This document shows, in pieces, positions 10,336-52,218 of a stretch of DNA of 64,000 nt; the first letter of the stretch is position 1, and every line of letters starts with the position of its first letter. Below the pieces are notes generated by a model. It made no database searches and was not told where the DNA came from. It saw only the letters and a program-made list of their open reading frames with translations. A program made the translations under genes and the position numbers. This DNA comes from Aestuariivirga sp. (GTDB lineage: Bacteria; Pseudomonadota; Alphaproteobacteria; Rhizobiales; Aestuariivirgaceae), in NCBI RefSeq assembly GCF_046093005.1, contig NZ_JBJTER010000089.1, positions 9,816 to 73,815 of the forward strand, read 5' to 3'.

Positions 10336-10345
10336 GAGGTGACAC

Positions 10346-11936: not shown

Positions 11937-11940
11937 CGGG

Positions 11941-12252: not shown

Positions 12253-12397
12253 GCGCGCGTGCTCCAGCGGTGCGGCGGGTTGATGCTTGAAGATTACCCG
12301 CAAGCGGCGGATGGAACAAGGCCGGCGGACACACTCTCGCCAAAGATCGGGAGGATACGTCCGTATGCTTTGGACGCGAACAAAGGCGGCCACCCGC

Positions 12398-13168: not shown

Positions 13169-13228
13169 TGCGATCCTTCAAGCGCCGGCGTTGAGAACGG
13201 CCGCGCCGGCTGGCGGCGCGGGCGCGCC

Positions 13229-13846
13229 TCAGAACTCGACCCCCGCCTGCGCCTTGACGCCGTCGCGGAACGGATGCTTCACCTGTTCCATCTCGGTGAC
13301 GAGATCGGCGATCTCGATCAGCTCGTCCTTGGCGTTGCGTCCGGTGACGATCACATGCTTGTCCGCGGGCTTGTCGCGCAACACCTCCAGCACCTCGCCG
13401 AGCGGCAGATAGTCATAGCGCAGCACGATGTTGAGTTCATCGAGCAGCACCATGCGGCAGGCGGGATCGGCGATCATGCGCCTGGCTTCCTCCCAGGCGG
13501 CGCGGGCATGCGCGATGTCGCGTTCACGGTCCTGGGTTTCCCAGGTGAAGCCCTCGCCCATTGCTTTCACCGTTACCAGATCGGGGAACTTCTCCAGCAC
13601 CGTGCGCTCGCCGGTGGCCCAGGCGCCTTTCACGAACTGCACGACACCGCAGCGCATGCCATGGCCGATGGCCCGGAAAATCATGCCGAAGGCGGCGGTG
13701 GATTTCCCCTTGCCCTTGCCGGTGTGAACGATCAGCAGGCCTTTCTCGATGGTCTTGCCGGCCATGATCTTGTCGCGCACGGCCTTCTTCTTCACCATCT
13801 TCTCGTGGTGGCGGGCATTGTCATGGCCCGGCTTTTCCTCGGTCAT
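13229..13846 (-). CDS. cobO: Cob(I)yrinic acid a,c-diamide adenosyltransferase
   Basis: HTGKGKGKSTAAFG, QFVKG, GEGFTWETQ, LDELN, TGRNA, QAGVEF. Confidence 0.96.
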   Translation of the reverse strand: MTEEKPGHDNARHHEKMVKKKAVRDKIMAGKTIEKGLLIVHTGKGKGKSTAAFGMIFRAIGHGMRCGVVQFVKGAWATGERTVLEKFPDLVTVKAMGEGFTWETQDRERDIAHARAAWEEARRMIADPACRMVLLDELNIVLRYDYLPLGEVLEVLRDKPADKHVIVTGRNAKDELIEIADLVTEMEQVKHPFRDGVKAQAGVEF

Positions 13847-16800
13847 TTGGTAAGCTCCTCCAGCACATCATGCGCGGAATTAAGCCGCGGCGTCCATAGC
13901 CCGCGGGCGGCGGCCTCCGCCAGGCGCTGGGCAATCTCCTTGAGCGCCGCCGGATTGTTGTCCGCGATGAAGCGGCGGGTGCCGGCATCGGCGATGAAGG
14001 CGTCATAGGCGAGATCGAAATGATGCGAGCGCACCGCGCCGGTTGTCGCCGCGAAAGCAAACATGTAGTCCACCGTGGCGGCGATCTCGAAGGCCCCCTT
14101 GTAGCCGTGGCGCTTCACGCCATCGATCCATTTGGGATTGACCACGCGGGACCGCATCACCCGGCTCACCTCCTCCTCGAGCGTGCGGATCACCGGGCGC
14201 TCGGGCCGCGAATGATCATTATGGTAGACGCGCGGGCGGGTGCCGGATGCCTGTTCCACCGCCGCCGTCATGCCGCCCTCGAACTGATAGTAGTCATCCG
14301 AATCGAGCAGATCGTGTTCGCGGTTATCCTGGTTGTGGACCACCGCCTCGATCCGCTTGAGGCGCGAGAGGAAGGCGTCTTCGTCGCGCACGCCTTGTGC
14401 GCCCGCGCCATAGGCATAGGCGCCCCAGGTGACATAGGCGGCGGCGAGATCGGCGCGGCTAGTCCATATCTTCTCATCGATCAGCGCCTGCAGGCCAGCT
14501 CCATAGGCGCCCGGTCTGGATCCGAAGATGCGATGGCCGGCCATCCGCCGGGCCTCGGCGTCGCCGATCCCCGCCCTTGCCAGTGCGCGCGCTTCCGCCG
14601 CCATGCGCTGAGCCAGCGGGTTGTCGTCTTCATCCTCCTCGAGCGCTCCCACCGCGCGGATCGCCTTGTCGAGGAGTTCGATCTGGGCGGGGAAGGCGTC
14701 GCGGAAGAAGCCGGAGATGCGCAAGGTCACATCGACGCGCGGCCGCCCCAGCCTGGCGAGCGGCAGGATCTCGAAGCCGGTCACCCGCCAGCTCGCTGTG
14801 TCCCACACCGGTTTGGCGCCGATCAGGGCGAGCGCCTGGGCAATGTCGTCGCCGCCGGTGCGCATGTTGGAGGTGCCCCAGGCGGAAAGCCCCAGCGCCT
14901 TGGGATAGCGCCCGAAATCCTGGAGATGGCGGAGCAGCAGCTCCTCGGCGGATTTGCGCCCGAGCGTCCAGGCGGCGGGCGTGGGCAGGGTGCGGTTGTC
15001 AAGCGAATAGAAGTTCCGCCCGGTCGGCAGCACGTCGAGACGGCCCCGGGTGGGGGCACCCGATGGCCCCGGCCGCACGAAACGCCCCGCAAGACCTCCC
15101 AGAAGTGCGGCGATTTCACATGGTCCCGAAGCGCGCAGCAGCGGCCGCACATGGCTGTCGATGCGGGCGAGCACCCTGGCGGTTGCGTTCATGCCGGGCG
15201 GCAAGGCGAGGCCCTCCAGCAAAGCCGCCGCATAAAGCTCAAGCCGCTCCACGGTATCGCCGTTGCTGCGCCAGGCTTCGGCCGAGATGTCAGCCAGTGC
15301 CAGTGGACGCGGGCCTGCCCAGGCCGCGGCGGGCGCGCAGCTCAGGGGGTCGAAGCCGGTCAATCCGAAATCGATCGTCAGCGCCCGGGTGAGCGATTGA
15401 TCGCCGTCTTCGCCAAGCCCGCGCGGCACGCGGGTGAGCGCCACGAGAAGATCGGTTTCGAGCCGGCCTTGCGGTGCGGCTCCCAGCACGTGAAGCCCAT
15501 CGCGGATTTGTGCTTCCTTGAGATCGCAGAGAAACGCATCAAGCCGCTGCAAATCCTGCTCTTCGTCACCGGTGAACCCAGCGTCCGCATCAAGCCTTGT
15601 TGAAGCGGTGAGCGCCAGGATATCGCGGCGCAGTGCCGCGCGCCGCCGCGGGTCGAGGCCGGACGCGAGGTAGTACTCGTCAACGAGGGCTTCGAGATCC
15701 TTGAGCGGGCCATAGGTCTCGGCGCGCGTGAGCGGCGGCGTCAGATGGCTGATGATCACCGCCGCGGTGCGCCGCTTGGCCTGGGTGCCTTCGCCCGGAT
15801 CATTGATGATGAACGGGTAAAGCTGCGGCACCGGCCCGAGAATGGCTTCCGGCAGGCAGTCCGCCGAAAGCGCGGTCGCCTTGCCCGGCAGCCATTCGAG
15901 ATTGCCATGCTTGCCATTGTGGATCACCGCATGGGCGCCGAACACGTGCCGCACCCAGATGTAGAAGGCGAGATAGCCATGCGGCGGCGGCAGGGCAGGG
16001 TCATGGTAGCTGGATTTGGGATCGATGTTGTAGCCGCGCGCCGGCTGGATCGCCACCGCGGCATTGCCATGGCGGATCACCGGCAGGCGGAAGCCGCCGC
16101 CGGCGAAGAACGGGTCATCAGCGGGATCGCCCCAGCGGCCAGTGATCCGTTCACGGACGGTCTCCGGCAATGCCGCGAAATGCCGGAGGTAATCGGCCAG
16201 CGAAAGCGTTTCTCCATTCACGCAAGCCGTCTTTGGCGCGGCGTTGGTCGGGCCCCGCTGCAGGGCGGCGATCAAGGCGTTGCCGGTCTCGGGGATGTTG
16301 GTGATCGCATAGCCTTCACCGAGCAGGGCGGCGAGGATCGCCACCGTGCTGGCCGGCGTGTCATAGCCCACGCCATTGGCGATGCGGCCATCCTTGTTGG
16401 GATAGTTGGCGAGGATCACCGCCACTTTCCGCCCTTGCGGCGGCGTGCGCCGGAGCCTGATCCAGCTGGCCGCGAGATCGGCCACGAAGGCCACGCGGTC
16501 CTCAACCGGGCGGTAGGTGAGGATCGGGCACTCCGTCCCGGCGTGCCACTGGTCCTCCGCCTTGAAGGAGATGGCGCGTGACAGAATTCTGCCGTCCAGT
16601 TCCGGCAGCACCACATTCATCGCGAGGTCGCGGGCCTCGAGGCCTTGCGGGCTGGCGCGCCACCGGGCTTCGGAGCTTCCCGCCAGCACCACTTGCAGCA
16701 CCGGGCAATCATAGGCCGCCAGCGGATCGTCGGCGCCGCCCGCCGCCACCGCGAAACTGGTGGCATTCAGGATGATGTCCGGCGGCCGCCCGGAAAGCCC

Positions 16801-17511
16801 GCCACCGATTGCCGCAATACTCGCCGCGTCCTTGAGGCTGGCGACATAGAAAGCGCGTGTTGCAATGCCGCGCGCGGCAAGCTCATCGATCAGCGCGTCG
16901 ATGGGGGCTGTCTGGCCGCCGTCGATCGCCGAGCGGTAGAAGATGATCGCCGCCAGCGGCTGGCCCGCCGCGCCGGTTTCGCGGTAGAGCCCGGCGGGGG
17001 CGGGGGGGATGGCGGGTGCCGGCTCTTCACCCCGCTCCGTCAGATGCCTGCAATAGGCAAGAAAGCCATCGGCGTTGGCGGCGCCGCCGGCCACCAGATA
17101 CTGCCGCAGCCGCTCGCAGTGATGGGCGGGCAGGCTTGAGCGGCGCGTGAGGTCCGGGTCCGGCTGGGCATCTCCCGGCAGGACCGCCAGCAGGATTCCC
17201 CTGGTCTCGGCCAGCGCCTCCAGTTGTTCCAGCCCATAGCTCCAGTAGGACGCGCCACCCAGCAGCCGCAGCACGATCAGCCTGGCATGCGCCAGCGTCT
17301 TCCCGGCGTAAACATCGACCGACAGCGGATGCTGCAGCCGCAACAGGCTGGCGAGGCGCAGGGAACAGGGGTTCCGGTCATGGGCGCGGGCGAGGCTTGC
17401 GAGTTCGCTGTCGGCGGCCGACAGCACGATGATATCGGCCGGCCGCTGCGCGAGGTCGACGGCCTCGGCACTGCCGTCGATCACACCGCTGGTTGAGGCG
17501 AGGAGGTGCAT
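13843..17511 (-). CDS. cobN: Cobaltochelatase large subunit
   Basis: MHLLA start, GKHGNLEWLPGK, NDPGEGTQAKRR, PTGRNFY, NPKWIDGVKRHGYKGA. Confidence 0.96.
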   Translation of the reverse strand: MHLLASTSGVIDGSAEAVDLAQRPADIIVLSAADSELASLARAHDRNPCSLRLASLLRLQHPLSVDVYAGKTLAHARLIVLRLLGGASYWSYGLEQLEALAETRGILLAVLPGDAQPDPDLTRRSSLPAHHCERLRQYLVAGGAANADGFLAYCRHLTERGEEPAPAIPPAPAGLYRETGAAGQPLAAIIFYRSAIDGGQTAPIDALIDELAARGIATRAFYVASLKDAASIAAIGGGLSGRPPDIILNATSFAVAAGGADDPLAAYDCPVLQVVLAGSSEARWRASPQGLEARDLAMNVVLPELDGRILSRAISFKAEDQWHAGTECPILTYRPVEDRVAFVADLAASWIRLRRTPPQGRKVAVILANYPNKDGRIANGVGYDTPASTVAILAALLGEGYAITNIPETGNALIAALQRGPTNAAPKTACVNGETLSLADYLRHFAALPETVRERITGRWGDPADDPFFAGGGFRLPVIRHGNAAVAIQPARGYNIDPKSSYHDPALPPPHGYLAFYIWVRHVFGAHAVIHNGKHGNLEWLPGKATALSADCLPEAILGPVPQLYPFIINDPGEGTQAKRRTAAVIISHLTPPLTRAETYGPLKDLEALVDEYYLASGLDPRRRAALRRDILALTASTRLDADAGFTGDEEQDLQRLDAFLCDLKEAQIRDGLHVLGAAPQGRLETDLLVALTRVPRGLGEDGDQSLTRALTIDFGLTGFDPLSCAPAAAWAGPRPLALADISAEAWRSNGDTVERLELYAAALLEGLALPPGMNATARVLARIDSHVRPLLRASGPCEIAALLGGLAGRFVRPGPSGAPTRGRLDVLPTGRNFYSLDNRTLPTPAAWTLGRKSAEELLLRHLQDFGRYPKALGLSAWGTSNMRTGGDDIAQALALIGAKPVWDTASWRVTGFEILPLARLGRPRVDVTLRISGFFRDAFPAQIELLDKAIRAVGALEEDEDDNPLAQRMAAEARALARAGIGDAEARRMAGHRIFGSRPGAYGAGLQALIDEKIWTSRADLAAAYVTWGAYAYGAGAQGVRDEDAFLSRLKRIEAVVHNQDNREHDLLDSDDYYQFEGGMTAAVEQASGTRPRVYHNDHSRPERPVIRTLEEEVSRVMRSRVVNPKWIDGVKRHGYKGAFEIAATVDYMFAFAATTGAVRSHHFDLAYDAFIADAGTRRFIADNNPAALKEIAQRLAEAAARGLWTPRLNSAHDVLEELTK

Positions 17512-18542
17512 CAGCCTCGCAGCAGCTGGGTGATGGCGGCGCGGTCCATGTGCTTCTCGCCGATCACCACGAGGGCCGTGCCGCGCGGCTCGTCCTGGCG
17601 CCATGGCCGGTCGAAATAGCTGTCGAGCCGCGGGCCCACCGCCTGCACCAGCAGCCGCGCCGGCGCGCCCGCGATTTCGGCGAAGCCCTTGAGGCGCAGG
17701 ACGCCGTGGCTGGCGATGGCGTTTCCGATGCGGTTCAGCAGCGCTGCCTTATCGCCTTGCGGGCCGAGCGCCACCACGAAGCTCACGAAATCATCATGGT
17801 CATGCTGTTCCTCGCCTTCCATCTCATGGTGCGAGAGGCGGTTCGCCATATCGTCTTCCGCCGCCGCCCCGGCGCCCAGCAGTGCTGCCACGCTCACCGC
17901 GCCGTGCCGCGCGGCGATCATCCCGGTGCCCGCCCGCAGCTTCTGCTTCAGCGCGGCGGTAACGGCGTCCTGTTCGCCGGCCGCGAGAAGGTCGGTCTTG
18001 TTGACGATCACCAGGTCAGCGCAATTGAGCTGATCCTCGAACAGTTCCTCGATCGGGTTTTCATGGTCGAGCGTCGGGTCGGCCAGGCGCTGTGCCGCCA
18101 GCGCTTCTTCATCATCCGCGAAACGGCCCTCGGCCAGCGCCTTGGCATCGACAACGGTGATCACCCCATCGACGGTGACGCGCGGCTTGATCTCCGGCCA
18201 GTTGAAGGCCCGCACCAGAGGCTGGGGCAGGGCGAGGCCGGAGGTTTCGATCACGATGTGCTGCGGCGGGTCCGGCCGGTCGATCAGCTTCTTCATGGTC
18301 GGAATGAAATCATCGGCCACGGTGCAGCAGATGCAGCCATTGGCGAGTTCGATCACATCCTCCTCGCGGCAGGCTTCGGCGCCGCAGCCCTTCAGGATTT
18401 CGCCATCGACCCCGACATCGCCGAACTCGTTGACGATGAGAGCGATGCGCCGCCCGCCGGCATTGGCCAGCAGGTTGCGGATCAGCGTGGTCTTGCCGGC
18501 GCCGAGGAAGCCGGTGATGACGGTGGCGGGAATCTTCTGCAT
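17511..18542 (-). CDS. cobW: Cobalamin biosynthesis GTPase CobW
   Basis: MQKIPATVITGFLGAGKTT, NGCICCTVADDF, ETSGLALP. Confidence 0.94.
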   Translation of the reverse strand: MQKIPATVITGFLGAGKTTLIRNLLANAGGRRIALIVNEFGDVGVDGEILKGCGAEACREEDVIELANGCICCTVADDFIPTMKKLIDRPDPPQHIVIETSGLALPQPLVRAFNWPEIKPRVTVDGVITVVDAKALAEGRFADDEEALAAQRLADPTLDHENPIEELFEDQLNCADLVIVNKTDLLAAGEQDAVTAALKQKLRAGTGMIAARHGAVSVAALLGAGAAAEDDMANRLSHHEMEGEEQHDHDDFVSFVVALGPQGDKAALLNRIGNAIASHGVLRLKGFAEIAGAPARLLVQAVGPRLDSYFDRPWRQDEPRGTALVVIGEKHMDRAAITQLLRG

Positions 18543-18544
18543 GG

Positions 18545-19237
18545 TCAGCTTTCGTAAATGTCCCTGGCGGTGAGCGTGAGGGCCACGGCGAGGAACTGGC
18601 CGATCAGCAGCCAGAACACCGCATTGGCGGCGATGGTGTTGGCGGCGAAGCGCGCCGCGAGTTCGGCCGGCACCGTGCTTTCGGCATGGATGCCCGATGG
18701 CGCGCCCAGCGCATGCGGAAGGGCGATCAGTGCCAGCGCCAGCGCCACGGCCCAGGCCTGGCGGCGGCTCACGAGCAGAAAGATGCCTGCCGCCGTCAGG
18801 GCCACGGTGCTCACCCACCATAGCTGCTGCAGCCAAAGATCGCCCGCCGCCATGCCAGGAAGCACCGGAGGGAGGCCGGCTGCCGGGGCAATGGTGACGG
18901 CCAGAAATCCGCACAGGCCCCAGACCATGCCGTTCCGCCGGGTGATGGCGATGCCGGACAGCAGCGAAATTCCCGCCAGCACGGCGGCAAAGGCGGCGCC
19001 GGTCATGACGGTGGTGAGGGTGGTTGCGAGGCTTCGCTGCCAGCCATCGGCGGGGCGCCAGCCGTCATGCTCATGCGCCCCGCCGTTGCCATGGTCATGC
19101 GTGGCCACGGATTGCCGCGCCTCGAAGCCTTCGGCTTTAAGGATGAGGGGCGTCAGCCGCACATGCAGGATGGCACCCATGATAAGCCCGGCCGCCATCC
19201 CCGCAAGGAGTGCGGCGAGCACCACGCGCCCGATCAT
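18545..19237 (-). CDS. cbtA: Cobalt transporter subunit CbtA
   Basis: TM helices, His-rich loop (HDHGNGGAHEHD), GLPPVLPG, PHALGAP; lies downstream of cbtB. Confidence 0.85.
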   Translation of the reverse strand: MIGRVVLAALLAGMAAGLIMGAILHVRLTPLILKAEGFEARQSVATHDHGNGGAHEHDGWRPADGWQRSLATTLTTVMTGAAFAAVLAGISLLSGIAITRRNGMVWGLCGFLAVTIAPAAGLPPVLPGMAAGDLWLQQLWWVSTVALTAAGIFLLVSRRQAWAVALALALIALPHALGAPSGIHAESTVPAELAARFAANTIAANAVFWLLIGQFLAVALTLTARDIYES

Positions 19238-19250
19238 GAGCTAGGCGTGG

Positions 19251-19427
19251 TCAGTGGCAGGGAAAGCCAATGGCATGGCGGGTATCATGGGCGCTGTTAT
19301 GCGCCACCGCCATGTTGGAGAGCCCCACCGCGAAGGTCAGCGTGAGGCCGATGAAGACAAGCGCCAGCCCGGCGGCAAGCCGTTGCGAGACGCTGAGCGG
19401 GAAAGCGGAAACAGAACGCGCGGTCAT
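19251..19427 (-). CDS. cbtB: Cobalt transporter subunit CbtB (58 aa)
   Basis: One TM helix and C-terminal HNSAHDTRHAIGFPCH. Confidence 0.87.
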   Translation of the reverse strand: MTARSVSAFPLSVSQRLAAGLALVFIGLTLTFAVGLSNMAVAHNSAHDTRHAIGFPCH

Positions 19428-19461
19428 GAACACCCTCCGTGGTGACCAGGTTGATCCGGTT

Positions 19462-19650
19462 GCGTGGCAGGTCTCCTGACTTGCGGGTCGCCGGGCTCTG
19501 GCGGCCTTCCCGGTTGCCCAGTGGCCATGATCGCCAGAACCCTCGCCGCTCACAGTTGCGGGGGCAGTCACGGTTTTGGCCCCGCTTGGGTCATCCTCAC
19601 CGTGTTCCCTGTTAGGCCCGCTGCCGTCCGGCGTGCGGGCACCACACAAG
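19462..19650 (-). ncRNA. Cobalamin (AdoCbl) riboswitch
   Basis: Minus strand reads AGGGAACACGGTG...AAACCGTGACTGCCCCCGCAACTGTGAG...GCCACTG...GGGAAGGC...AAGTCAGGAGACCTGCC upstream of cbtB. Confidence 0.93.
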
Positions 19651-19807
19651 CGTTGTTCTTACAGCATGCCGGCGCTTCGTCAACCGCGCCACGCCGCTTT
19701 CCGGTCCGAAAACGGCACAGCTTGGAGCCCCGCGTTTACCAAACCGCAAGTCCCGGGGCCCTTGCCGGAAACTGGATTTTAACCCTGTTGGCCGGATACT
19801 GCCTTTC

Positions 19808-21034
19808 ATGCGTACCCGATCCCTGTTTCTCGCCACGGTGTGTTCCGCGTTCCTTGCTGCAAGTGCGGCGGCTTCCGGAACCTTCGCCGCAACCTCCGAC
19901 ACTGAGCTCGTCACCGCGGCCTATCAGGCCTTGCAGGCAGGCGACATCGAGACCGCCATCGCCGGCTTCAGCAAAGCGATCGAGTCCCGCGGTCTGGCGC
20001 CGGGCGTCCTCGCCAATACGCTGCTCAACCGCGCCCACGCCTACCAGCGCATGAACGAGCACCAGCTGGCGATCGATGACTACACGGCCGCGCTGCGCAT
20101 CGATGCAATGTCGGGCGAGGTGCGCGCGCTGGCGCTCTATAACCGCGGTCTCTCCTATCAACGGCTGCAAAACAACACGCTGGCCATGGAGGATTTCACC
20201 TCCGCCCTGTTCCTCAACGGCCAGTTCAGCCATGCCTATTACAGCCGCGGCATGCTGCTGCGCGATGCCGGGCAGTATCTCTTCGCGCTCGCCGATTTCG
20301 ACAAGGCGCTGCGCTACAATTATCCTGATCCGGCCCGCGTCCATGTCGCCGAGGCGATGGTGTTCGAAAAGCTGCAGCGTCTGCCGGATGCGCGGGCGGC
20401 GCTGGAAAAGGCTCTGGCCGCCAAACCTGATTATGAGCCCGCGCAGCGCCGCCTGGCGGCGCTTGATGGCGTGCCGGCGCCCGCGGTTGCGGGTGACGAG
20501 ATCCAGACCGCGGCGGTGAGCCCGGCGCCGGATGGCCTGCCCGCCGCCCAGGCGCCCTCGGAAGCGCTGATGGTGGAGGAGCCGGCGGCAGCGCAGGGCT
20601 CTGCCAAGCAGTTCTCGGACCGGGTGCCGTCGGGTGAAGCGGCCGCGCCGGCTGCCGCTCCCGCCACGGAAACGGTGATCGCGGTGGAAACCGTGCCGGA
20701 AGAACCGTCCGCGCCGGCCGCGCAGGTTGAGGTGGCCGCCGCCGGGCCAGCCCCGGCGGAGGAGCCTCCGCCGCCGAAGCTGACGGGCTGGACGGTGCAG
20801 CTCGCTTCCGCCACCAGCGAGGATGGCGCCTGGTCGAGCTGGAAGAAGATGCAGGGCCGCTACAAGGTGCTCGCCGGCAAGGAACCGGTGGTGGTCCGCG
20901 CCGATCTGGGCGCCAAGGGCGTGTTCTACCGGGTGCGGCTCGTGGGCTTCGACAGCCAGTCGGAAGCCGGCAGCGCCTGCGCCCGGCTCAAGGCCAAGGG
21001 CGTGAAGTGCTTCGTCAGCAAGGCCGCTTCGTGA
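19808..21034 (+). CDS. Exported TPR-repeat protein with C-terminal SPOR domain
   Basis: Signal peptide, TPRs (NRAHAY, YNRGLSY, YYSRG), Ala/Pro/Glu linker, WTVQLAS...GVFYRVRL...C-x2-L-K-x2-G-x-x-C. Confidence 0.82.
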   Translation: MRTRSLFLATVCSAFLAASAAASGTFAATSDTELVTAAYQALQAGDIETAIAGFSKAIESRGLAPGVLANTLLNRAHAYQRMNEHQLAIDDYTAALRIDAMSGEVRALALYNRGLSYQRLQNNTLAMEDFTSALFLNGQFSHAYYSRGMLLRDAGQYLFALADFDKALRYNYPDPARVHVAEAMVFEKLQRLPDARAALEKALAAKPDYEPAQRRLAALDGVPAPAVAGDEIQTAAVSPAPDGLPAAQAPSEALMVEEPAAAQGSAKQFSDRVPSGEAAAPAAAPATETVIAVETVPEEPSAPAAQVEVAAAGPAPAEEPPPPKLTGWTVQLASATSEDGAWSSWKKMQGRYKVLAGKEPVVVRADLGAKGVFYRVRLVGFDSQSEAGSACARLKAKGVKCFVSKAAS

Positions 21035-23056: not shown

Positions 23057-24457
23057 TCATCGGGCGTCTGCGGTGCGGCGGTTTGTGGCGTCCGGGCTGC
23101 GCGCAAGGTGGTAAGCAATTACGATTGTTGCCATTAGCAGGATCACCTCCAGCCCATAGACCGAAAGATAGGGCAACACTGTTCCCCCGCCGCCAATGGC
23201 CGCGACGCTGTCACGGAGGATCGCGCCCAGCGCAATCCCGCATCCCGCGGCGGTGGCCTGCACTGCGCCCCATGCGCCAAGCGCCAGGCCACGCTGGTCT
23301 TCGGGCGCATGGTTCATGGTGGCGGTGAGCGTGCCGTGCCCGAACAGCCCGCCGCCAAAGCCAATGAGCAGCGTGCCGGCGCCGAACAGCAAGGGTGAGG
23401 CCAATGGCGCCGCCGCGATGATCATCAGGAACGCCGGCACCCCAACCATCGCGCCGCATGCGGCCATGCGGAACGCATCGAAGCCGCGGCTCAGCACATA
23501 GGAGGCAAGGCTGAAGCCCAGGAGGCCGCCGCCCGCGAGTGCGGCCGTCAGCACCGTGGTGCGCGACACGGTAAGGCCGAGGACCTGGCCGCCATAGGGC
23601 TCCAGCATCACATCCTGCATGCTGAAGGCGAGTGTGCCGAGGCCTACCGCCACCAGCCGGGCCATCGCCTTGTCGCCGGCGATGAAGCAGGCCCAGGCCT
23701 CCCGGAAACTGGGGTCGGGGGCGGCTCCTGGCCGCCGCCTGGCGCCGCCGCGCGCCTCCTGCTTCCAAACCGCGATACCGGTGAGCAGCAAGGTGGCCAC
23801 GCCCGCGCCCTGGATCACCTGAACCAGCCGCCCATGCGAGAAATTGGCGAGCAAGGCTCCGAAAATCAGTGCACTGATGATTGAGCCCGCCAGCAGAGAG
23901 ACATACATGAGCCCGACCACATTGGGCTGTTTTTCCGGGGGCGTGAGGTCTGTCGCCAGTGCGAGCCCGGCAGTCTGGCTGATGTGCAGTCCGGCTCCAA
24001 CGAGCAGGAAGGCAAGCGCCGCCGCCGCCTGGCCCACCCAGGCGGGAACTTCAGCGGCATGGCCCTGGCGGGCAAGCACCAGCAGCGCGAAAGGCATGAT
24101 GGCGAGGCCGCCGAACTGCAGCATCGCGCCCTTGTAGATGAATGGAACGCGCTTCCAGCCCAGTTCGGACTGGTGGGTGTCGGATTTGAAGCCGATGAGC
24201 GCCCGGAATGGCGCGAAAACCAGTGGCATGGCCAGCATCACGGCCACCAGCGAGGCCGGAACGTGCAGCTCAACGATCATCACCCGGTTCAGCGTGCCCA
24301 CCAGCAGCGCCAGTGTCATTCCGGCGGAGACCTGGAACAGCGAAAGCCGCAGCAGCCGCTCGATCGGCACATCGGCCGTCGCGGCGTCCGCGAAGGGAAG
24401 ATATTTCGCGCCGAGCCCGATCCAGGCCCGCATCACGCTCTGGCTGAGACGGTTCAT
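23057..24457 (-). CDS. pucC: PucC/LhaA-family MFS light-harvesting assembly protein
   Basis: YLPFADAAT, LLRLSLFQVS, GTLNRVMIVEL, LEPYGG, GAWGAVQATAAG; follows pucBA. Confidence 0.9.
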   Translation of the reverse strand: MNRLSQSVMRAWIGLGAKYLPFADAATADVPIERLLRLSLFQVSAGMTLALLVGTLNRVMIVELHVPASLVAVMLAMPLVFAPFRALIGFKSDTHQSELGWKRVPFIYKGAMLQFGGLAIMPFALLVLARQGHAAEVPAWVGQAAAALAFLLVGAGLHISQTAGLALATDLTPPEKQPNVVGLMYVSLLAGSIISALIFGALLANFSHGRLVQVIQGAGVATLLLTGIAVWKQEARGGARRRPGAAPDPSFREAWACFIAGDKAMARLVAVGLGTLAFSMQDVMLEPYGGQVLGLTVSRTTVLTAALAGGGLLGFSLASYVLSRGFDAFRMAACGAMVGVPAFLMIIAAAPLASPLLFGAGTLLIGFGGGLFGHGTLTATMNHAPEDQRGLALGAWGAVQATAAGCGIALGAILRDSVAAIGGGGTVLPYLSVYGLEVILLMATIVIAYHLARSPDATNRRTADAR

Positions 24458-24498
24458 GCCCCGTATCCGGCGGTTAATGCTGCAACCGGTGTCGGAAT

Positions 24499-24607
24499 TT
24501 GCGGGAGGTGCGCGGGGCTTGGGTCCCCGCTCACCTCTCGCAATATCGTAGCCATCCCCCTTGCACTGCCGGCGCCGCTTTCGGGGGAAAGGAGGCGCCG
24601 GCGGTGC
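24499..24607 (-). terminator. Two GC-rich stem-loops between pucA and pucC (mRNA stabiliser/attenuator)
   Basis: TTGCGGGAGGTG...CACCTCTCGCAA (24499-24543) and GCACTGCCGGCGCC...GGCGCCGGCGGTGC (24563-24607). Confidence 0.55.
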
Positions 24608-24624
24608 CGGTCAGGAGGGACCAT

Positions 24625-24927
24625 CTATTTTACGGCGATCGCCGTCTCGTCCTCGAGCGAGGCGAGCTTGGCGGCCGCGTCAGGAGCCACTGTCACGGTG
24701 ATGACATAGCCCTGATCGGTCTTGGTCACGTTCGAGGCCAGCGGCGAAACCGTGGTTTCGGCCGAGGCGGCCTGCGCGGCCGCTCCGCCCTCGAAGAACT
24801 TCGACACCCAGGTGCTGTGCGTCATCACTGACGCATGCACCACCAGCGAGGTGACCGCCACGCCGCCGATGAACAGCGGCAGGCCGACGGTGGGGTTAAC
24901 GACGCACCAGATTCTTCCTTGGTTCAT
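24625..24927 (-). CDS. pucA: LH2 alpha polypeptide with long C-terminal extension (100 aa)
   Basis: [17 protein letters not shown], His31 BChl ligand, TW at 39-40. Confidence 0.93.
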
Positions 24928-24939
24928 GTCATTAACCTC

Positions 24940-25095
24940 CTAGTGCAGCCATGGCGAATAAACATACGCCAGCAGGTGTGCGAAGAGGGCGATCACGAAG
25001 AACACGCGCGAGCCGTCGATGACGTGCTTGTGCAGTTCCTCTGATTCCCGGATGGTAAGGCCAGTCGGCCATACCCGGTTGGGATCGTCTGACAT
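24940..25095 (-). CDS. pucB: LH2 beta polypeptide (51 aa; below the ORF-track cutoff)
   Basis: Manual translation: [51 protein letters not shown]; GGAGG RBS upstream. Confidence 0.94.
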
Positions 25096-28089: not shown

Positions 28090-28142
28090 TTCGGTCACTC
28101 CTCCGGCCCTGGAAGCCGGCCTTATTTCTCGAATTTCAGTTC

Positions 28143-28178
28143 GTGGACGGAACGGGGTGGAGGCCGCGTTCCGTCCAC
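28143..28178 (-). terminator. pufA-pufL intercistronic stem-loop
   Basis: Perfect 12-bp stem GTGGACGGAACG/CGTTCCGTCCAC at the position known to stabilise pufBA mRNA in Rhodobacter. Confidence 0.7.
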
Positions 28179-28756: not shown

Positions 28757-28972
28757 CTACATGAAGGCGAAGGGGATCGAGTTGTGCGTCGCGGCCTTGG
28801 CGGCGGCGAAGATGGACTTGCCATCCTCATGGCCGGCCATGCGCGGCCGCGCGGCCCGCGGGATCAGCCGCGAGAGCGCGATGGCCACGAAGAACACCGC
28901 GAAGGCCAGCCACATCAGCAGGCTGAACTCGAGCTTCCCCTCGGCGTGGCGTGAGGCGTTGATCATTGACAT
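28757..28972 (-). CDS. pufQ: PufQ-like small membrane protein
   Basis: 71 aa, one TM helix after EF, C-terminal SIFAAAKAA...PFAF; sits between bchZ and pufB. Confidence 0.7.
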   Translation of the reverse strand: MSMINASRHAEGKLEFSLLMWLAFAVFFVAIALSRLIPRAARPRMAGHEDGKSIFAAAKAATHNSIPFAFM

Positions 28973-29024: not shown

Positions 29025-30467
29025 TCAGGCGAGCTCCGCGATGGCTGAAAGCACGTCGGCTTCCGCGACGGTTTCGGATTGCGCCTTGCGGGCGCGGGCC
29101 TCGGCGCCGTCGCGAAGCCGCTTGGCGGCGGATATCCGCACCAGCACCGGCTGGCGTTCCACGAGTTCGTCAAGCGCCGCCTTGGCGGCCGCGTCCCAGA
29201 TCAATTCATGCTCGCGCCGCGCCGGTGTTGCTTCCACCTTGTCCATGTCGGTGGCGAGCGGCAGGATGTTGAACAGCGCGTCGAACAGCGCGTTGCACAC
29301 TTCCTGGATCAGATAGGTGGCGCCGGCATAGCCCATGAACGGCGTGCCGGTATGGCGGCGGATGATGGCGCCGGGGACGGAGGCGGGGAGATAGATGCCG
29401 CGCCCGCCCGCTTCCGTGAGCTACATGCGCTCGTTGTAGCTGCCGAACAGGATGAGCGGCGCCTTCTCGCGAACCAGCTTGCGCACCGCCTCGTTGTCGG
29501 TCTTGGCGCCCGCCTTGCGGGTCACCGCGAACTGGCAGGGCAGGCCCATCTCCTCGCCCAGGAAATGCTCGAGCCCGCGGGCATAGGTTTCGCTCGCCAC
29601 CACGGCGAAGCTGGCGGTGGCGAAGAAATCCTGGGTCACCGAGCGCCACAGGTCCCACAGCGGCTTGATGGTGGTGTGCTTTTCCCGGGCGATGAACGGC
29701 TCGGGATCGAGCCCGAGGGTTTCACCCAGCGCGCGCAGGAACTTGGTGGTCGAGTGCAGCCCGATCGGCGCCTGCAGATAGGGCCGGTCGAGGGTCTCGC
29801 ACAGCTTGCGGCCATATTCGCGGTACATGCACACATTGGCTTCCGCATTGGCGAGCTTCGGCACATCCGCGAGGTGCGATCCCAGCGGGAAGCACATGTT
29901 GACCTCAGCGCCGATGCCTTCGACCAGGCGGCGGATCTCCGCCAGGTCAGACCAGGTGTTGAAGGTGCCGTAGATGGGGCCGATGATATTGACGCGCGGC
30001 TTGTCGCCGGGCGCCCGCGGCTTGGCGGTCGGAACCTGCTTCTTCTTGGTTCCGAATTCCGTCCACAGCCAGTTCATGGCGCGGTCAGCGCTCTGCCACT
30101 GGTCTTCGTCGATGGTGCGCGGCAGGAAGCGCTGGATGCCGGTGCCCTGCGGCGTCACCCCGCCGCCGATCATCTCGGCGATCGAGCCGGTCACCACCAC
30201 GCTCGGCATGGCCGGATCGAGGGTCTTGTGGGCGCGGCGCATGGCGCCTTCGGTGCCGTGCTGGCCGAGTTCCTCCTCGGAAAGCCCGGTCACCACGATC
30301 GGCAGCTCATGCGGCGGCAGCGCGTCGGTGTAATGCAGCACCGATGTCACGGGAAGATTTTCGCAGCCCACCGGCCCGTCGATGATCACCTGCAATCCCT
30401 TGATCGCGGTGAACACATAGACAGCGCCCCAATAGCCGCCGGCGCGGTCGTGATCTAGCACCAGCAT
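29025..30467 (-). pseudogene. bchZ: Chlorophyllide a reductase subunit Z interrupted by an in-frame TAG at 29421-29423 (real lesion or sequencing error)
   Basis: [14 protein letters not shown]...[43 protein letters not shown]... The two ORF-track fragments are in one frame, 87 nt apart. Confidence 0.92.
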
Positions 30468-30528: not shown

Positions 30529-32061
30529 TCATGTTCCCACCGCCTCTTCGGCCTTGGCGCGCGCCGCCAGCATGCCGGCATATTTCTTGCGGAACTCGGG
30601 GCGGTCGACCGGCGTATCTTCCCAGATGCCCGCCGCATGGCCTTCGCCCACGCCGGCGAAGAATTCGGTCATCGTATCGAAGCGGTGCTTGTTGGCCAAC
30701 GCCGCGTTGATCACCTGGGCGAGCGATCCGGCCCCCGCCGGGCCCATCAGCGGCCGCGCCGAGATCAGATTGGTGAAATAGAGCGACGGGATCGAAAGCT
30801 GCTTGGCTTTCTGCACCACCGGCGTGGTGCCGATCGCCAGATCGGGCCTTGCGTCAATCATCGCCGCGATGTCGTTCTCGAGCGAGGCGCGGAACTGCAC
30901 GGTGACGCCGCGCGCCTCCAGCCAGGCACGGTCGGCATCCGACCAGCGGGTGCGCGGGCAGGCGCTGCCGACATAGGGAACCTCAGCGCCGCTTTCGATC
31001 AGCAGCCGCGCCACCAGAAGCTCCGAGCCCTCGTAGCCAGAAACCGTGATGCGGCCCTTGATCGGCTTTGCCGCAAGAGCGCCCCTGATGGCGGGCAGGA
31101 TCGCATTCTGTGCCGCGGCGATCTTCTCGGCGCCGACATTGCAGGCCTGGCCGATGGCGGCGAGCCAGTCGGCCGTGCCGTCATGGCCCACCGGGGCGGA
31201 ACCAACGACGCTGCGTCCCGCCGCCTCGAATTCGCGCACCGCGGATGTGTAGAAGGGATGGATCGCCGCCACCGCGGCGCAATCGAAGGCGGCGAACAGC
31301 TCGCGCCATTCCCGCGTCGGCACCACCGGCCCGGCGGCAAGCCCCATCGGCTCCAGCATGCGGCCGATGCCGACCGGATCGGCGGGGACCATTTCGCCCA
31401 GCAGCGTGACCGCGGGACGCGCGCTGCGCGAGGTGCGCGGCGCGGCCACCGGACCCTGGCGGATTTCGGAGGCGGCATATTTCAGCATCGCGCCGGCGAG
31501 CACGTCCTTCGCTTCGGCATGGGTCGGCACGCCAAAGCCCGGCACGTCGATGCCGATGATGCGAACCCCGTTGATCTCCTTGGGCAGAAGTTGCAGCGGC
31601 ACGCCAGAGGCCGTCGGCACGCACAGATTGGTAATGACGATCGCGTCATAATCCTCGGGCTTCGCCAGCTTGTAGACGGCCTCGCGGATGTCCTCGAACA
31701 GCTTGCCGGTCACCAGCGTCTCGGAATTGAACGGCACATAGCCGACCGAGCGCCGCGCGCCGTAGAAGTGCGAGGTGAAGGTGAGGCCGTAGACGCAGCA
31801 GGCCGAGCCGGAAAGGATCGTCGCGGTGCGGCGCATGCGCAGTCCCACCCGCAGCGAGCCGAAGGCCGGGCACATGCTTTGCGGCTGGTCATGCGGGCCC
31901 AGCGGATAGTCCCTGGCGTATTGTTCCAGCGCTTCGGACTTGCCGGCGGCGCGCGCCGCCTTGTTGAGTTCATCCTTGCCCGCATGGCAGGACAGACCGG
32001 AGACATCCGCCTTTGGCGCCTCCGTCACGGGCCCGTTCCTGTCGATGAGGGTGGTGGCCAT
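30529..32061 (-). CDS. bchY: Chlorophyllide a reductase subunit Y
   Basis: [28 protein letters not shown] Fe-S ligands. Confidence 0.96.
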
Positions 32062-32065
32062 TGTC

Positions 32066-33064
32066 TTAAACCGTGTCGTAGATCACTTCGAGGGAAGGCT
32101 TGGCGGTGATGGTGCCCCCGCACATGTCCTCGGCGGACGCGGGCACCAGCACGACGTTGCGGCCCACCGTGTCGCCCTTGAACAGGCCAAGCAGGCCGTC
32201 CTGGTCGAGCGGCGAGGGGCGCTGCGGCGGGGCTTCCGCCACGTTGACGGCGAGGCCGGCGAACAGCGCGCCCCACTCGCTTTCGGGCTTGCCGATGATC
32301 TCGTAATTGGCGCTCTTGCGGCGAATGTCCTCATGGGCGGGGATCGAGGCCAGCACCGGAATGCCAACGGCCTCGGCGAAAGCCGCCGCCTCGCCGGTGC
32401 CGTCGTCCTTGTTGATGACGATGCCGGCCACGCCCACATTGCCGCCGAGCTTGCGGAAATATTCCACCGCCGAGCAGACATTGTTGGCCACATAAAGCGA
32501 CTGCAAGTCGTTGGAGCCGACGATGATCACCTTCTGGCACATGTCGCGGGCGATCGGCAGGCCGAAGCCGCCGCACACCACGTCGCCGAGGAAGTCGAGC
32601 AGCACATAATCGAAGCCCCATTCATGGAAGCCCAGCTTCTCCAGAAGCTCGAAGCCGTGGATGATGCCGCGCCCGCCGCAGCCGCGGCCCACTTCCGGGC
32701 CGCCCAGCTCCATGGCGAAGACGCCGTCGCGCTTGAAGCACACATCGCCGATCTTCACCTCTTCGCCGGCCAGCTTCTTCTTGGCCGAGGTCTCGATGAT
32801 GGTGGGGCAGGCCTTGCCGCCGAACAGCAGCGAGGTGGTGTCGCTTTTCGGGTCGCAGCCGATCAGCAGCACGCGCTTTCCCTGCTGCGCCATCATGTAG
32901 GAGAGGTTGGCGAGCGTGAAGCTCTTGCCGATGCCGCCCTTGCCGTAAATGGCGATGATCTGCGTTTCTTTCTTCACCGGTCCGGTGTGCACGGGGTCGG
33001 GAGGCTGGTTGGCCTCCTCGCGCAGCTTGGCGTCACGGACCAGTGTCAGGTCGATGCTGTTCAT
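32066..33064 (-). CDS. bchX: Chlorophyllide a reductase iron protein X
   Basis: YGKGGIGKS P-loop, GRGCGGRG, DVVCGGF (NifH-like). Confidence 0.97.
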   Translation of the reverse strand: MNSIDLTLVRDAKLREEANQPPDPVHTGPVKKETQIIAIYGKGGIGKSFTLANLSYMMAQQGKRVLLIGCDPKSDTTSLLFGGKACPTIIETSAKKKLAGEEVKIGDVCFKRDGVFAMELGGPEVGRGCGGRGIIHGFELLEKLGFHEWGFDYVLLDFLGDVVCGGFGLPIARDMCQKVIIVGSNDLQSLYVANNVCSAVEYFRKLGGNVGVAGIVINKDDGTGEAAAFAEAVGIPVLASIPAHEDIRRKSANYEIIGKPESEWGALFAGLAVNVAEAPPQRPSPLDQDGLLGLFKGDTVGRNVVLVPASAEDMCGGTITAKPSLEVIYDTV

Positions 33065-47670: not shown

Positions 47671-48459
47671 ATGACCCCTGACTGGGACAGCCTCACCCGC
47701 TTCGCGATCGCGCTGGCCTATGAATCGGCCGCCGCCATCCTCCCCTATTTCCGCCGCAACGCCGAAATCGAGGTCAAGGACGGCCCGGTGTGGGACCCGG
47801 TCACCGAGGGCGACCGGGCCGGTGAGCGCGCCATCCGCCGGATGATCGAGGAGCGCTTTCCGGACCATGGCATTCTCGGCGAGGAGTATGGGGTGAAAGA
47901 GGCCAGATCGCCCTTCACCTGGGTGCTGGACCCGGTGGACGGCACCCACGCCTTCGTCTGCGGCATGCCGACCTGGGCAACGCTCAACGGCCTCAGCTAT
48001 GCGGGCCGCCCGGCGGTCGGGTTGATGAACCAGCCGGTGGTGGGCGACATGTTCTATGGCAATCCGGCGGGCGCCTGGCATGACTACCGTGGCGCCACCA
48101 GCCCGATCACCAGCCGCCGCAACGTCACGCTGGAGCAGGCCAGCATCGGCACCACCGCGCCCGAGCTCTACCGCAGCACTGAAAACCAGCGCCGCTTCCA
48201 GGCGTTGCGCGCCAGGGCGCGGCTCACCCGCTATGGCGGCGATGCCTATTTCTTCTGCATGGTGGCGGCGGGCCACATCGACATCGCCATGGATTGCGGC
48301 CTCCAGCCCTATGACATCACGCCCCTGCTGCCGATCGTGGCGGGTGCGGGCGGCGCCGCCGCCGAATGGACGGGTGGCGACCTGGCGCGGGGCGGCAATG
48401 TGATCACCGCCGGCTCCGAGGCCCTGCTCGCGGAAGCGCTCGCCGTCATGTCCGGCTGA
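47671..48459 (+). CDS. hisN: Histidinol-phosphatase, inositol monophosphatase family
   Basis: DPVTEGD, GEEYG, WVLDPVDGT, GGDAY, YDITPL. Confidence 0.85.
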   Translation: MTPDWDSLTRFAIALAYESAAAILPYFRRNAEIEVKDGPVWDPVTEGDRAGERAIRRMIEERFPDHGILGEEYGVKEARSPFTWVLDPVDGTHAFVCGMPTWATLNGLSYAGRPAVGLMNQPVVGDMFYGNPAGAWHDYRGATSPITSRRNVTLEQASIGTTAPELYRSTENQRRFQALRARARLTRYGGDAYFFCMVAAGHIDIAMDCGLQPYDITPLLPIVAGAGGAAAEWTGGDLARGGNVITAGSEALLAEALAVMSG

Positions 48460-50424: not shown

Positions 50425-52218
50425 TCAGCTCTGCGTCTTCTCGCGCCGCAGCCGTTTGCGGGCGAGGTCGAGCGGCTCCGTGCGGTTGGGGCGCCCGAGC
50501 AGCTTGCGAAAGCCGTCGCGGCGCTCATGCACCGAGGCGATGGCAAGGCCCATCGGCACGCCGGTCTCGACCAGCAGCGCCTCGCCGAGCTGCAGGCTCG
50601 ATTCGACGGTTTCCGGCACCGCCTCGGTGACGCCATGCGCGTAAAGCCTCTGGGCATGGCGCTCGTCGCGGGCCCGGGCCACGATCTTGAGATCGCCGCG
50701 CAGTGCTCGCGCCGCCTTGGCCACTTCATCGGCGCGCACCGGATTGTCCATGGTGATGGCCAGAGCGGGAGCTTCCGCCAGCCCGCAGCGCTTGAGGAAT
50801 TCTGCGTTGGACGCGTCGCCGAAATAGACCGGCTTTCCCAGTTTTCGTTCACGCGCCACGAGTTCGGCGTCGCTGTCGGCGGCGAGGAAGGGGATTTTGT
50901 GCTCTTCCAGCATCGAGGCGATGAGCTGGCCCACCCGGCCGAAGCCGGCGATGATCACCCGCGGCTGACTGTCATCCGGAAGTGGGGTCGCCGCCGCCGC
51001 CAGCGCGGCGTCGTGGCGGAGCGCCGCGCCAAGCCGCTGTCCGAGCCTGGCGAGGAAGGGGATGGCGATCATGGTGAGCGTCACCACCAGCACGATGTTG
51101 CGGGTGGTCGCGTTGTCGATGAGCCCGGAGGCCAGCGCCGCGGCGGCGATCACGAAACCGAATTCGCCGCAGGGGCCCAGCAGGATGGAGGATTCGAGCG
51201 CTGCGGCATGCTGCACCCTGAAGGCGCGCGCCAGTCCATAAACGATGGCGGACTTCAGCACGATGATGCCCGCAGCCATGCCCAGCGTATAGGCCGGCGC
51301 GGCGAACAGCATATCGAGATCGAGCTTGAGCCCGACCACCAGGAAGAAGGTGCCGAGCAGCAGGCCCTTGAACGGCTCGATCACCGCCTCGATGGCGCGG
51401 CGGTATTCGGTTTCGGCCAGCAGCAGCCCGGCGATGAAGGCGCCGAGCGTCATCGAGATACCGGCGAGGCTGGCGATGGCGCCGGTGCCGACCGCGATCA
51501 GCAGGGTGGCGGCCATGAAGAAATCCGCCCCGCCGGTGCGCGCCACCAGGCGCAGGAGCGGGCGCAACAGGTAACGGCCCACCGTGACGATCAAGGCGAT
51601 GGCGAGCGCCGCCTGGGCAAGCGCCATGAGCACGCTGACGATCACATTGCCTTCGGTTCTGGCGCCGAGAATGGGCACCAGCAAAAGCAGCGGGATCACC
51701 GCCAGGTCCTGCATCAGCAGGATGGCGAAGCTGGCGCGGCCGGTTTGCGAGCCCAGCCGCTTCGAATCCGAGAGCAGCTGCACCACGATCGCCGTCGAGG
51801 AAAGCGAGAGCGCCGCGCCGGCCACCAGCGCCGCGCGGATGTCGAAGCCCATCGCCACGGCGATCGCCGCGATGGCGGCAAGGCTTGCCACCACCTGCAA
51901 ACCGCCCAGCCCGAACACCAGCCGTCGCATGATGGTGAGGCGTTCGAATGAGAGTTCGAGGCCGATCAGGAACAGGAGGAACACAACGCCAAGCTCGGCG
52001 ATGTGAGAGAGCGTCCCGGTTTCGCCGATGTTCGCATATGACAGCCAGGGAAAGACATTGGCTAGCCGGCCAAGCACATCCGGGCTCAGCAGGATGCCCA
52101 CGGTCAGGAAGGCCACCACGGAGTTGACGCCAATGCGCAGAAACAGCGGCACGATCAGGCCTGCCGCGCCCAGCACAATCAGAAACTCCTTGTAGTAGAA
52201 CGCCTGTTCAGCCGCCAT
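50425..52218 (-). CDS. CPA2-family monovalent cation:proton antiporter with KTN/TrkA-N domain (KefB/C-like)
   Basis: GVVFLLFLIGLE, LSSTAIV, QDLAV, IAGFGRVGQ, FGDAS. Confidence 0.92.
   Translation of the reverse strand: MAAEQAFYYKEFLIVLGAAGLIVPLFLRIGVNSVVAFLTVGILLSPDVLGRLANVFPWLSYANIGETGTLSHIAELGVVFLLFLIGLELSFERLTIMRRLVFGLGGLQVVASLAAIAAIAVAMGFDIRAALVAGAALSLSSTAIVVQLLSDSKRLGSQTGRASFAILLMQDLAVIPLLLLVPILGARTEGNVIVSVLMALAQAALAIALIVTVGRYLLRPLLRLVARTGGADFFMAATLLIAVGTGAIASLAGISMTLGAFIAGLLLAETEYRRAIEAVIEPFKGLLLGTFFLVVGLKLDLDMLFAAPAYTLGMAAGIIVLKSAIVYGLARAFRVQHAAALESSILLGPCGEFGFVIAAAALASGLIDNATTRNIVLVVTLTMIAIPFLARLGQRLGAALRHDAALAAAATPLPDDSQPRVIIAGFGRVGQLIASMLEEHKIPFLAADSDAELVARERKLGKPVYFGDASNAEFLKRCGLAEAPALAITMDNPVRADEVAKAARALRGDLKIVARARDERHAQRLYAHGVTEAVPETVESSLQLGEALLVETGVPMGLAIASVHERRDGFRKLLGRPNRTEPLDLARKRLRREKTQS

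What the first reader, a model, noticed from the sequence alone, without database searches (positions are those of the whole stretch)
29421..29423. Single in-frame amber codon splits bchZ in an otherwise intact photosynthesis operon
Seen: [17 protein letters not shown]..., with the frame staying open to a normal BchZ C-terminus at 29025. TAG occupies the position that is normally Tyr (TAC/TAT), one substitution away. Known: BchXYZ (COR) is required for BChl a synthesis. Inference: one of (a) a very recent loss of phototrophy with puf/puc still intact, (b) a leaky stop that throttles COR, or (c) a base-call error. A second odd change 13 codons downstream (SVPG for SFPG) favours error or relaxed selection.
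Basis: partly seen in the sequence, partly recalled or inferred. Interest (0 to 1): 0.72.

Follow-up and report, generated by a model that had tools for sequence, protein, structure and literature searches.

The report
Amber codon in bchZ: assembly error
The stop codon that splits the bacteriochlorophyll gene bchZ is really in the sequence, but it lies in one of several short patches of implausible base changes that no independent data for the same lake bacterium shows, so it is most likely a sequencing or assembly error and not a loss of phototrophy.

Summary
bchZ (minus strand, 30467..29025) carries TAG at 29423-29421, where 120/120 homologous proteins and 79/79 genomes have Tyr (TAT/TAC). 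The frame stays open to a normal C-terminus.

The stop is not an isolated change. It belongs to a 44-nt patch of five differences: Y349*, V358I, I360L, one silent change and F364V. Four freshwater metagenomes and one JGI contig hold the same strain, about 99.96% identical over 51 kb. All of them read TAT/ATC/TTC here, at the strain's full depth. No indexed public run holds any sampled 31-mer of the window's version.

Three similar patches occur in bchY, an inositol-monophosphatase-family gene and a cation/proton antiporter. They also replace conserved residues with residues rarely or never seen in relatives.

Of the 22 window-specific differences, the 9 isolated ones are all silent or non-coding. 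The 13 clustered ones are 11/13 non-synonymous (Fisher p=2e-4). A:T>C:G changes after GGGA are over-represented (P~1e-6).

Verdict: most likely local consensus errors in the source assembly (~0.85). A real, very recent mutation is not excluded, because the source reads were not available. There is no support for a programmed leaky stop.

The parts
29424..30467 (-). bchZ, part upstream of the stop (codons 1-348)
   Evidence: TIGR02014 BchZ, 602.7 bits, profile positions 1-344 of 468. Identical to the intact protein P0001 over these residues.
29421..29423 (-). In-frame TAG at codon 349, where the family has Tyr
   Evidence: Tyr in 120/120 homologues. TAT/TAC in 79/79 genomes. The + strand C at 29421 reads A (giving TAT) in contigs of runs X2, X3 and X4 at the strain's depth.
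29025..29420 (-). bchZ, part downstream of the stop (codons 350-480 plus TGA)
   Evidence: TIGR02014 profile positions 346-466, 170.5 bits. The frame is open to TGA at 29027-29025.
29378..29421 (.). Patch A: five window-specific substitutions in 44 nt (29378, 29379, 29390, 29396, 29421), giving F364V, one silent change, I360L, V358I and Y349*
   Evidence: P0001 has Y, V, I and F at these positions. None of 9 sampled 31-mers of 29348-29452 is held by any indexed run.
31389..31418 (.). Patch B in bchY: two A>C changes 29 nt apart, giving F225V and L215R
   Evidence: All covering runs read A at both sites. Position 225 is Phe in 74/74 relatives; Arg at 215 is common in the family.
47948..48002 (.). 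Patch C in an inositol-monophosphatase-family gene (47671-48459, +): four changes in 55 nt, giving R93H, one silent change, I106N and E111A
   Evidence: Pfam PF00459. In 70 relatives position 93 is R64/K5/I1, position 106 is I63/V6/L1 and position 111 is E58 with A only twice. No run holds more than 1 of 5 sampled words of the patch.
50474..50480 (.). Patch D in a Na/H-exchanger plus TrkA-N gene (50425-52239, -): two T>G changes 6 nt apart, giving K587T and Q589P
   Evidence: All four runs read T at both sites. Pfam PF00999 and PF02254. In 30 relatives position 587 is K or R in 26, and position 589 is never Pro.
30529..32061 (-). bchY
   Evidence: TIGR02015, 716 bits, profile positions 1-422 of 422.
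32066..33064 (-). bchX
   Evidence: TIGR02016, 427 bits.

Best explanation
The TAG is most likely a consensus error in the assembly that produced this contig, not a feature of the organism. The organism is a freshwater Aestuariivirga-like aerobic anoxygenic phototroph whose real bchZ most probably reads TAT (Tyr) at codon 349, ATC (Ile) at 360 and TTC (Phe) at 364. At a few places the contig's consensus seems to have been taken from poor sequence, for example a low-coverage spot carried by error-rich read ends. That would produce short substitution-only patches of 7 to 55 nt that are blind to codon position and to residue conservation. What is shown: the patches exist, their alleles are missing from independent data of the same strain, they ignore selection, and they have a context bias. 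What is inferred: that their cause is technical. The platform and the exact assembly step are unknown.
For: (1) Logan contigs of four freshwater metagenomes (X1-X4) match the window at all but 22 of about 51,000 bases. At the stop they read A on the + strand, giving TAT, at depths of 14.8, 25.8 and 16.8. Those depths equal the strain's depth in the flanks, and no contig carries the window's C at 29421 or 29378.
(2) An independently assembled JGI protein, P0001, is 475/480 identical and intact. It has Y349, V358, I360 and F364.
(3) No indexed run holds any of the 9 sampled 31-mers across the patch, whereas 20 runs hold the surrounding 1.7 kb.
(4) Within 16 codons the window replaces an invariant Tyr, an Ile/Val-only position and a Phe (118/120) with a stop, Leu and Val. 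The rest of the gene is unchanged.
(5) Three more patches of the same kind lie in bchY, an IMPase-family gene and a cation/proton antiporter. They also put unseen or rare residues at conserved positions.
(6) The 9 isolated window-specific differences are 8 silent and 1 non-coding, and two of them segregate in run X4. The 13 clustered ones are 11 non-synonymous, and none is seen in any run. Fisher p=2.2e-4.
(7) Ten of 20 gaps between neighbouring sites are 60 nt or less (simulation P<1e-5). Nine of 22 changes are A:T>C:G, and four of those nine follow GGGA, a context that covers 1% of A:T sites (binomial P=1e-6).
(8) The differences are substitutions only, with no indels. Published Illumina error profiles report clustered miscalls, G-rich preceding motifs, an excess of A/T to G/C changes with A-C and T-G cross-talk, and higher rates in high-GC genomes (PMC3141275; PMC4787001).
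Against: The reads behind this contig were never seen. Its own record is absent from the searchable collections. Logan contigs drop rare variants, so they show that TAT is present but cannot show that TAG is absent at low frequency. The nine isolated silent differences show that the source is a slightly different sample or genotype from X1-X4, so a private real mutation is formally possible. The miscalls do not copy the preceding bases, as classical Illumina dephasing errors do. One patch allele (bchY R215) is the commonest residue in the family. The sequencing platform is unknown.
Confidence: 0.85

Rival explanations
1. The nonsense mutation is real and very recent. One genotype of this lake population lost chlorophyllide a reductase and is at the first step of losing phototrophy. 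The patches would be real multi-base mutation events, for example error-prone repair synthesis or a mutT-like A:T>C:G mutator.
For: The stop is one substitution from Tyr. The rest of the photosynthesis cluster is intact, as expected just after inactivation. The window differs from X1-X4 at real silent polymorphisms, so it is a distinct genotype. The excess of A:T>C:G changes is also the signature of 8-oxo-dGTP misincorporation (own knowledge).
Against: Four patches in 51 kb scale to roughly 350 such events in a genome of about 4.4 Mb, mostly hitting conserved residues in unrelated genes. That is hard to reconcile with a genotype abundant enough to assemble into a contig of 64 kb or more. A mutator explains the type of change but not clusters of 7 to 55 nt. 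No independent data set holds any patch allele.
Confidence: 0.11
2. The patch is an assembly chimera. In this conserved gene the graph is tangled by co-occurring phototroph strains, and the assembler threaded a short path from another strain or a minor variant.
For: Short-read contigs break exactly here, and depth rises to hundreds because many strains share k-mers. Two patch alleles, G at 29379 and T at 29396, are the majority alleles in other co-occurring strains.
Against: The three damaging alleles (C at 29378, G at 29390, C at 29421) occur in no strain laid at 80% likeness or more, in no relative genome and in no homologue. Patches C and D lie in regions where a single 5-kb contig spans the site without any branching.
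Confidence: 0.03
3. The stop is functional: programmed read-through or amber suppression that lowers the COR dosage.
For: None beyond the open frame downstream of the stop.
Against: There is no stop at this codon in 120 proteins or 79 genomes, including the same strain in other samples. TAG ends 13 of 39 called genes in the window, so it is not reassigned. The window has no tRNA gene. The stop comes with two further damaging changes in the same patch.
Confidence: 0.01

Closest known systems
Residual consensus errors in metagenome-assembled contigs; Illumina sequence-specific and clustered substitution errors (Nakamura et al. 2011, PMC3141275; Schirmer et al. 2016, PMC4787001)
   Same: The differences are substitutions only and come in short runs. 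A/T to G/C changes of the A>C and T>G kind are in excess. G-rich sequence precedes four of the sites. The genome is high-GC (65.7%). The changes pay no attention to codon position or residue conservation.
   Different: The platform of the source assembly is unknown. The miscalled bases do not repeat the preceding bases, as lagging-strand dephasing predicts. The preceding motif here is GGGA, not the 3-mers ending in GG that the papers report. Errors normally vanish in a consensus unless local coverage is very low, and local coverage could not be checked.
Genuine bchZ (chlorophyllide a oxidoreductase subunit Z) null mutants of purple bacteria
   Same: Truncation after residue 348 would remove the last 132 of 480 residues. 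These match the C-terminal quarter of the BchZ model and the stretch where Pfam PF08369 (PCP_red) hits the intact homologues. It would be expected to abolish COR and hence bacteriochlorophyll a synthesis (own knowledge of the pathway).
   Different: The mutation is not seen in independent data for the same strain. There is no phenotype information and no sign of relaxed selection elsewhere in the gene.
Programmed stop-codon read-through or amber suppression
   Same: An in-frame TAG with an open, homologous frame downstream.
   Different: The stop is not conserved in any relative, there is no sign of reassignment, and it is accompanied by other damaging substitutions.

Membership tests
BchZ, chlorophyllide a reductase subunit Z (NCBIfam TIGR02014) | Sequence matches the equivalog model above its cut-off (529 bits) | tested here: met
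   The upstream part alone scores 602.7 bits and the downstream part adds 170.5 bits, colinear on the profile.
BchZ, chlorophyllide a reductase subunit Z (NCBIfam TIGR02014) | Gene context bchX-bchY-bchZ followed by puf genes | tested here: met
   bchC, bchX, bchY, bchZ, a 71-codon ORF, pufB, the pufA position (not scanned itself; a 60-aa LHC gene sits there in the same-strain contigs), pufL, pufM and pufC, all on the minus strand.
BchZ, chlorophyllide a reductase subunit Z (NCBIfam TIGR02014) | Uninterrupted reading frame of about 480 codons | tested here: not met
   TAG at codon 349 in the window as given. Copies of the same strain elsewhere are intact.
Genuine pseudogene (real inactivating mutation) | The disrupting allele is present in independent reads or assemblies of the same lineage | tested here: not met
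   All covering contigs in X2-X4 read TAT (X1's near-identical contigs break just before the site), and P0001 is intact. No run holds the patch k-mers.
Genuine pseudogene (real inactivating mutation) | The disrupting allele is supported by the source assembly's own reads | not testable with these tools
   The source record and its reads were not found in any collection.
Programmed read-through or recoding site | The stop codon is conserved at the site in relatives | tested here: not met
   Tyr in 120/120 proteins and TAT/TAC in 79/79 genomes.
Programmed read-through or recoding site | TAG is reassigned, or a suppressor tRNA is present | tested here: inconclusive
   TAG ends 13 of 39 called genes. 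There is no tRNA in the window, but the rest of the genome was not available.
Sequencing or assembly artefact | The allele is private to one assembly while the same strain elsewhere has the consensus allele | tested here: met
Sequencing or assembly artefact | The differences are unfiltered by selection and recur in unrelated genes | tested here: met
   Clustered sites are 11/13 non-synonymous against 0/8 for isolated coding sites, p=2.2e-4. Conserved residues are hit in bchY, the IMPase-family gene and the antiporter.
Sequencing or assembly artefact | Low coverage, strand bias or low base quality at the sites in the source reads | not testable with these tools
   The source reads are unavailable.

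The most novel reading that the evidence does not exclude
The patches are real. A wild freshwater aerobic anoxygenic phototroph genotype would carry bursts of clustered, context-biased (GGGA-N, A:T>C:G) multi-base mutations, one of which has just knocked out bchZ. That would catch both localized hypermutation and the first step of phototrophy loss in nature.
Probability: 0.08. Interest if true: 0.5.

Novelty: not a real feature. Interest (0 to 1): 0.07.

Why it matters
If the stop is taken at face value, this genome would be scored as a phototroph that has just lost bacteriochlorophyll synthesis. Aestuariivirga is a core member of freshwater aerobic anoxygenic phototroph communities (PMC10976687), so that scoring would distort trait inference for the genus. 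The practical lesson is about method. A lone in-frame stop in an otherwise perfect gene of a metagenome-derived contig should be checked against independent reads or contigs of the same population before any biology is read into it. Comparing clustered with isolated differences, and non-synonymous with silent ones, is a quick way to separate errors from real polymorphism. This contig probably holds more such patches than the four found in the 51 kb examined, so other annotations drawn from it deserve caution.

Tried and rejected
- I looked up the truncated 348-aa product and the 510-aa BchY by exact sequence to find the source contig. Neither is on record.
- The look-up with PufB returned only short contigs of the same strain that stop before codon 349.
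- Two pattern scans of the JGI metagenome contigs (N at the variable sites, then a shorter pattern) and one scan of the species-representative genomes found no exact match, not even of the native haplotype. They are therefore uninformative.
- DNA for the P0001 contig could not be fetched because the sample file is too large.
The stretch 9000-19999 worked. Positions 1-8999 and 60000-64000 were not compared.
- Recombination from a relative was considered as the source of the patch. It was rejected because the damaging alleles occur in no strain, genome or homologue.
- The classical Illumina dephasing signature (a miscall equal to the preceding base) was checked by eye on the contexts and is not seen. 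For that reason the platform is left open.
- No solved COR structure exists to place Y349 or F364. The nearest structures are DPOR BchB chains.

Full report
**1. The observation**

bchZ lies on the minus strand from ATG 30467 to TGA 29027-29025. The sequence reads ...[26 protein letters not shown]..., with TAG at 29423-29421. NCBIfam TIGR02014 (BchZ) aligns the upstream 348 residues to profile positions 1-344 (602.7 bits) and the downstream 131 residues to positions 346-466 (170.5 bits). The stop therefore occupies exactly one profile position, and the two halves are colinear.

bchY (TIGR02015), bchX (TIGR02016) and bchC lie upstream. A 71-codon ORF, pufB, pufL, pufM and pufC lie downstream, and all give full-length family matches. 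The second odd change, Val for Phe in SFPG, is at codon 364. That is 15 codons after the stop, not 13.

**2. How unusual the residues are**

In 120 homologous proteins (79-99% identical), position 349 is Tyr in 120. Position 360 is Ile in 108 and Val in 12; the window has Leu. Position 364 is Phe in 118 and Leu in 2; the window has Val. In 79 species-representative genomes the codon is TAT (43) or TAC (36) and is never a stop. The closest genomes are freshwater Aestuariivirga MAGs, at up to 94% protein identity.

**3. The same strain in independent data**

Twenty public freshwater metagenome runs hold the 1.7 kb around bchZ. Contigs of the four best runs (X1-X4) are identical to the window across bchZ except inside a 44-nt stretch. 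There, a contig at the strain's own depth (14.8 in X2, 25.8 in X3, 16.8 in X4) differs at five + strand positions:

| Position | Window | Runs | Effect (runs to window) |
|---|---|---|---|
| 29378 | C | A | TTC Phe to GTC Val (F364V) |
| 29379 | G | A | silent |
| 29390 | G | T | ATC Ile to CTC Leu (I360L) |
| 29396 | T | C | GTC Val to ATC Ile (V358I) |
| 29421 | C | A | TAT Tyr to TAG stop (Y349*) |

Even at 80% likeness, which brings in other co-occurring strains, no contig carries the window's C at 29378, and none was listed with its C at 29421.

An independently assembled JGI protein (P0001, 480 aa, intact) is 475/480 identical. It differs at exactly these four residues (Y, V, I, F) plus one other. 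No indexed run holds any of the 9 sampled 31-mers of 29348-29452. One caveat applies: contigs drop rare variants, so they show that TAT is present but cannot show that TAG is absent at low frequency.

**4. The stop is one of several patches**

I laid 9000-59999 on X1-X4 at 98% likeness or more and kept the sites where at least three of the four runs cover the site and the window's base appears in none of them, or only in X4. This gives 22 window-specific differences in about 51 kb.

Nine are isolated:
- 14830 in cobN
- 20896
- 25311 in pufC
- 40979, 40997 and 41147 in crtB
- 45869
- 53661, one base before a start codon
- 59248

All eight coding ones are silent third-position changes. Two of them (25311, 59248) are present in X4, so they look like real polymorphisms.

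The other thirteen fall in four patches:
- **Patch A**, bchZ: described above.
- **Patch B**, bchY 31389 and 31418: F225V, where Phe is found in 74/74 relatives, and L215R, where Arg is common in the family.
- **Patch C**, an inositol-monophosphatase-family gene, 47948-48002: R93H next to the DPVDGT motif (R64/K5/I1 in 70 relatives), one silent change, I106N (I63/V6/L1) and E111A (E58, A only twice).
- **Patch D**, a Na/H-exchanger plus TrkA-N gene, 50474 and 50480: K587T (K or R in 26 of 30 relatives) and Q589P (Pro never seen).

None of the thirteen patch alleles occurs in any run. The stretch around patch C is likewise not held by any run beyond one word of five.

**5. Statistics**

- Non-synonymous changes are 0 of 8 among isolated coding sites and 11 of 13 among clustered sites (Fisher p=2.2e-4).
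- Ten of 20 gaps between neighbouring sites are 60 nt or less. No simulation in 100,000 reached that number.
- Nine of the 22 changes are A:T>C:G. Four of those nine follow GGGA on the + strand, a context that covers 1.0% of A:T positions (binomial P=1.1e-6).
- There are no indels.

The isolated differences behave like selected polymorphism. The clustered ones behave like unselected noise with a sequence-context bias.

**6. Interpretation**

The simplest account is that the contig's consensus is locally wrong. Published Illumina error profiles describe the following:
- runs of consecutive miscalls that start at sequence-specific positions;
- higher rates in high-GC genomes;
- an excess of A/T to G/C conversions, with T-G and A-C favoured by optical cross-talk (PMC3141275);
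- substitutions that cluster and follow G-rich 3-mers (PMC4787001).

The fit is suggestive but not exact. The miscalls here do not copy the preceding base, and the platform of the source is unknown. I therefore claim only a technical consensus error, not a specific mechanism. The window is 65.7% G+C.

**7. Rivals**

A real recent nonsense mutation, with real clustered mutation events, cannot be excluded without the source reads. It would imply hundreds of mostly damaging patches genome-wide in a genotype abundant enough to assemble well, and a mutator would not explain the clustering.

A strain chimera explains two of the five alleles in patch A but not the three damaging ones. It also does not explain patches C and D, which lie on unbranched 5-kb contigs.

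A programmed leaky stop is contradicted by the complete lack of conservation, by ordinary use of TAG as a stop (13 of 39 genes), and by the company the stop keeps.

**8. Comparison with known things, and verdict**

The gene is a BchZ by sequence and context. The stop most likely does not belong to the organism. No COR structure has been solved; the nearest are DPOR BchB chains. Aestuariivirga is a core freshwater AAP genus (PMC10976687), so a false pseudogene call would matter for trait inference. The finding itself is ordinary.

Confidence that it is an artefact is 0.85. Interest is low. The decisive test is the read pile-up of the source assembly at the four patches, or Sanger sequencing.

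Noticed in passing
window 31389-31418, 47948-48002, 50474-50480: Three further short patches of window-specific substitutions, in bchY, an IMPase-family gene and a cation/proton antiporter. They replace conserved residues and are absent from all runs that hold the same strain. The contig probably has more such patches in the parts not compared.
   Followed up: yes
window 23057-25095 (minus strand): Downstream of pufC lies a second antenna gene pair: a 51-aa protein matching the LH1 beta model NF040862 and a 100-aa protein with a Pfam LHC domain. A PucC-family gene (PF03209) follows. This may be an extra light-harvesting (puc-like) unit in this AAP lineage.
   Followed up: no
window 28760-28972 (minus strand): A 71-codon ORF sits between bchZ and pufB, at the position of pufQ. 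It has no Pfam hit. An ORF of the same size is called in the independent contigs of the same strain.
   Followed up: no
Some stretch in the first 9 kb therefore resembles sequence common in human-derived runs, either a conserved gene or a contaminant-like segment.
   Followed up: no
window 28090-28168; 18343-18485; 37724/38757: Population variants appear in the metagenome contigs. One X2 contig skips 77 nt just upstream of pufL. X1 and X2 contigs replace 141 nt at 18343-18485 with other sequence. One X4 contig joins 37724 to 38757 on opposite strands.
   Followed up: no
window 29205-29207 (bchZ codon 421): The JGI protein P0001 has Gly where the window and runs X1-X4 have Glu. This looks like an ordinary strain difference.
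   Followed up: partly
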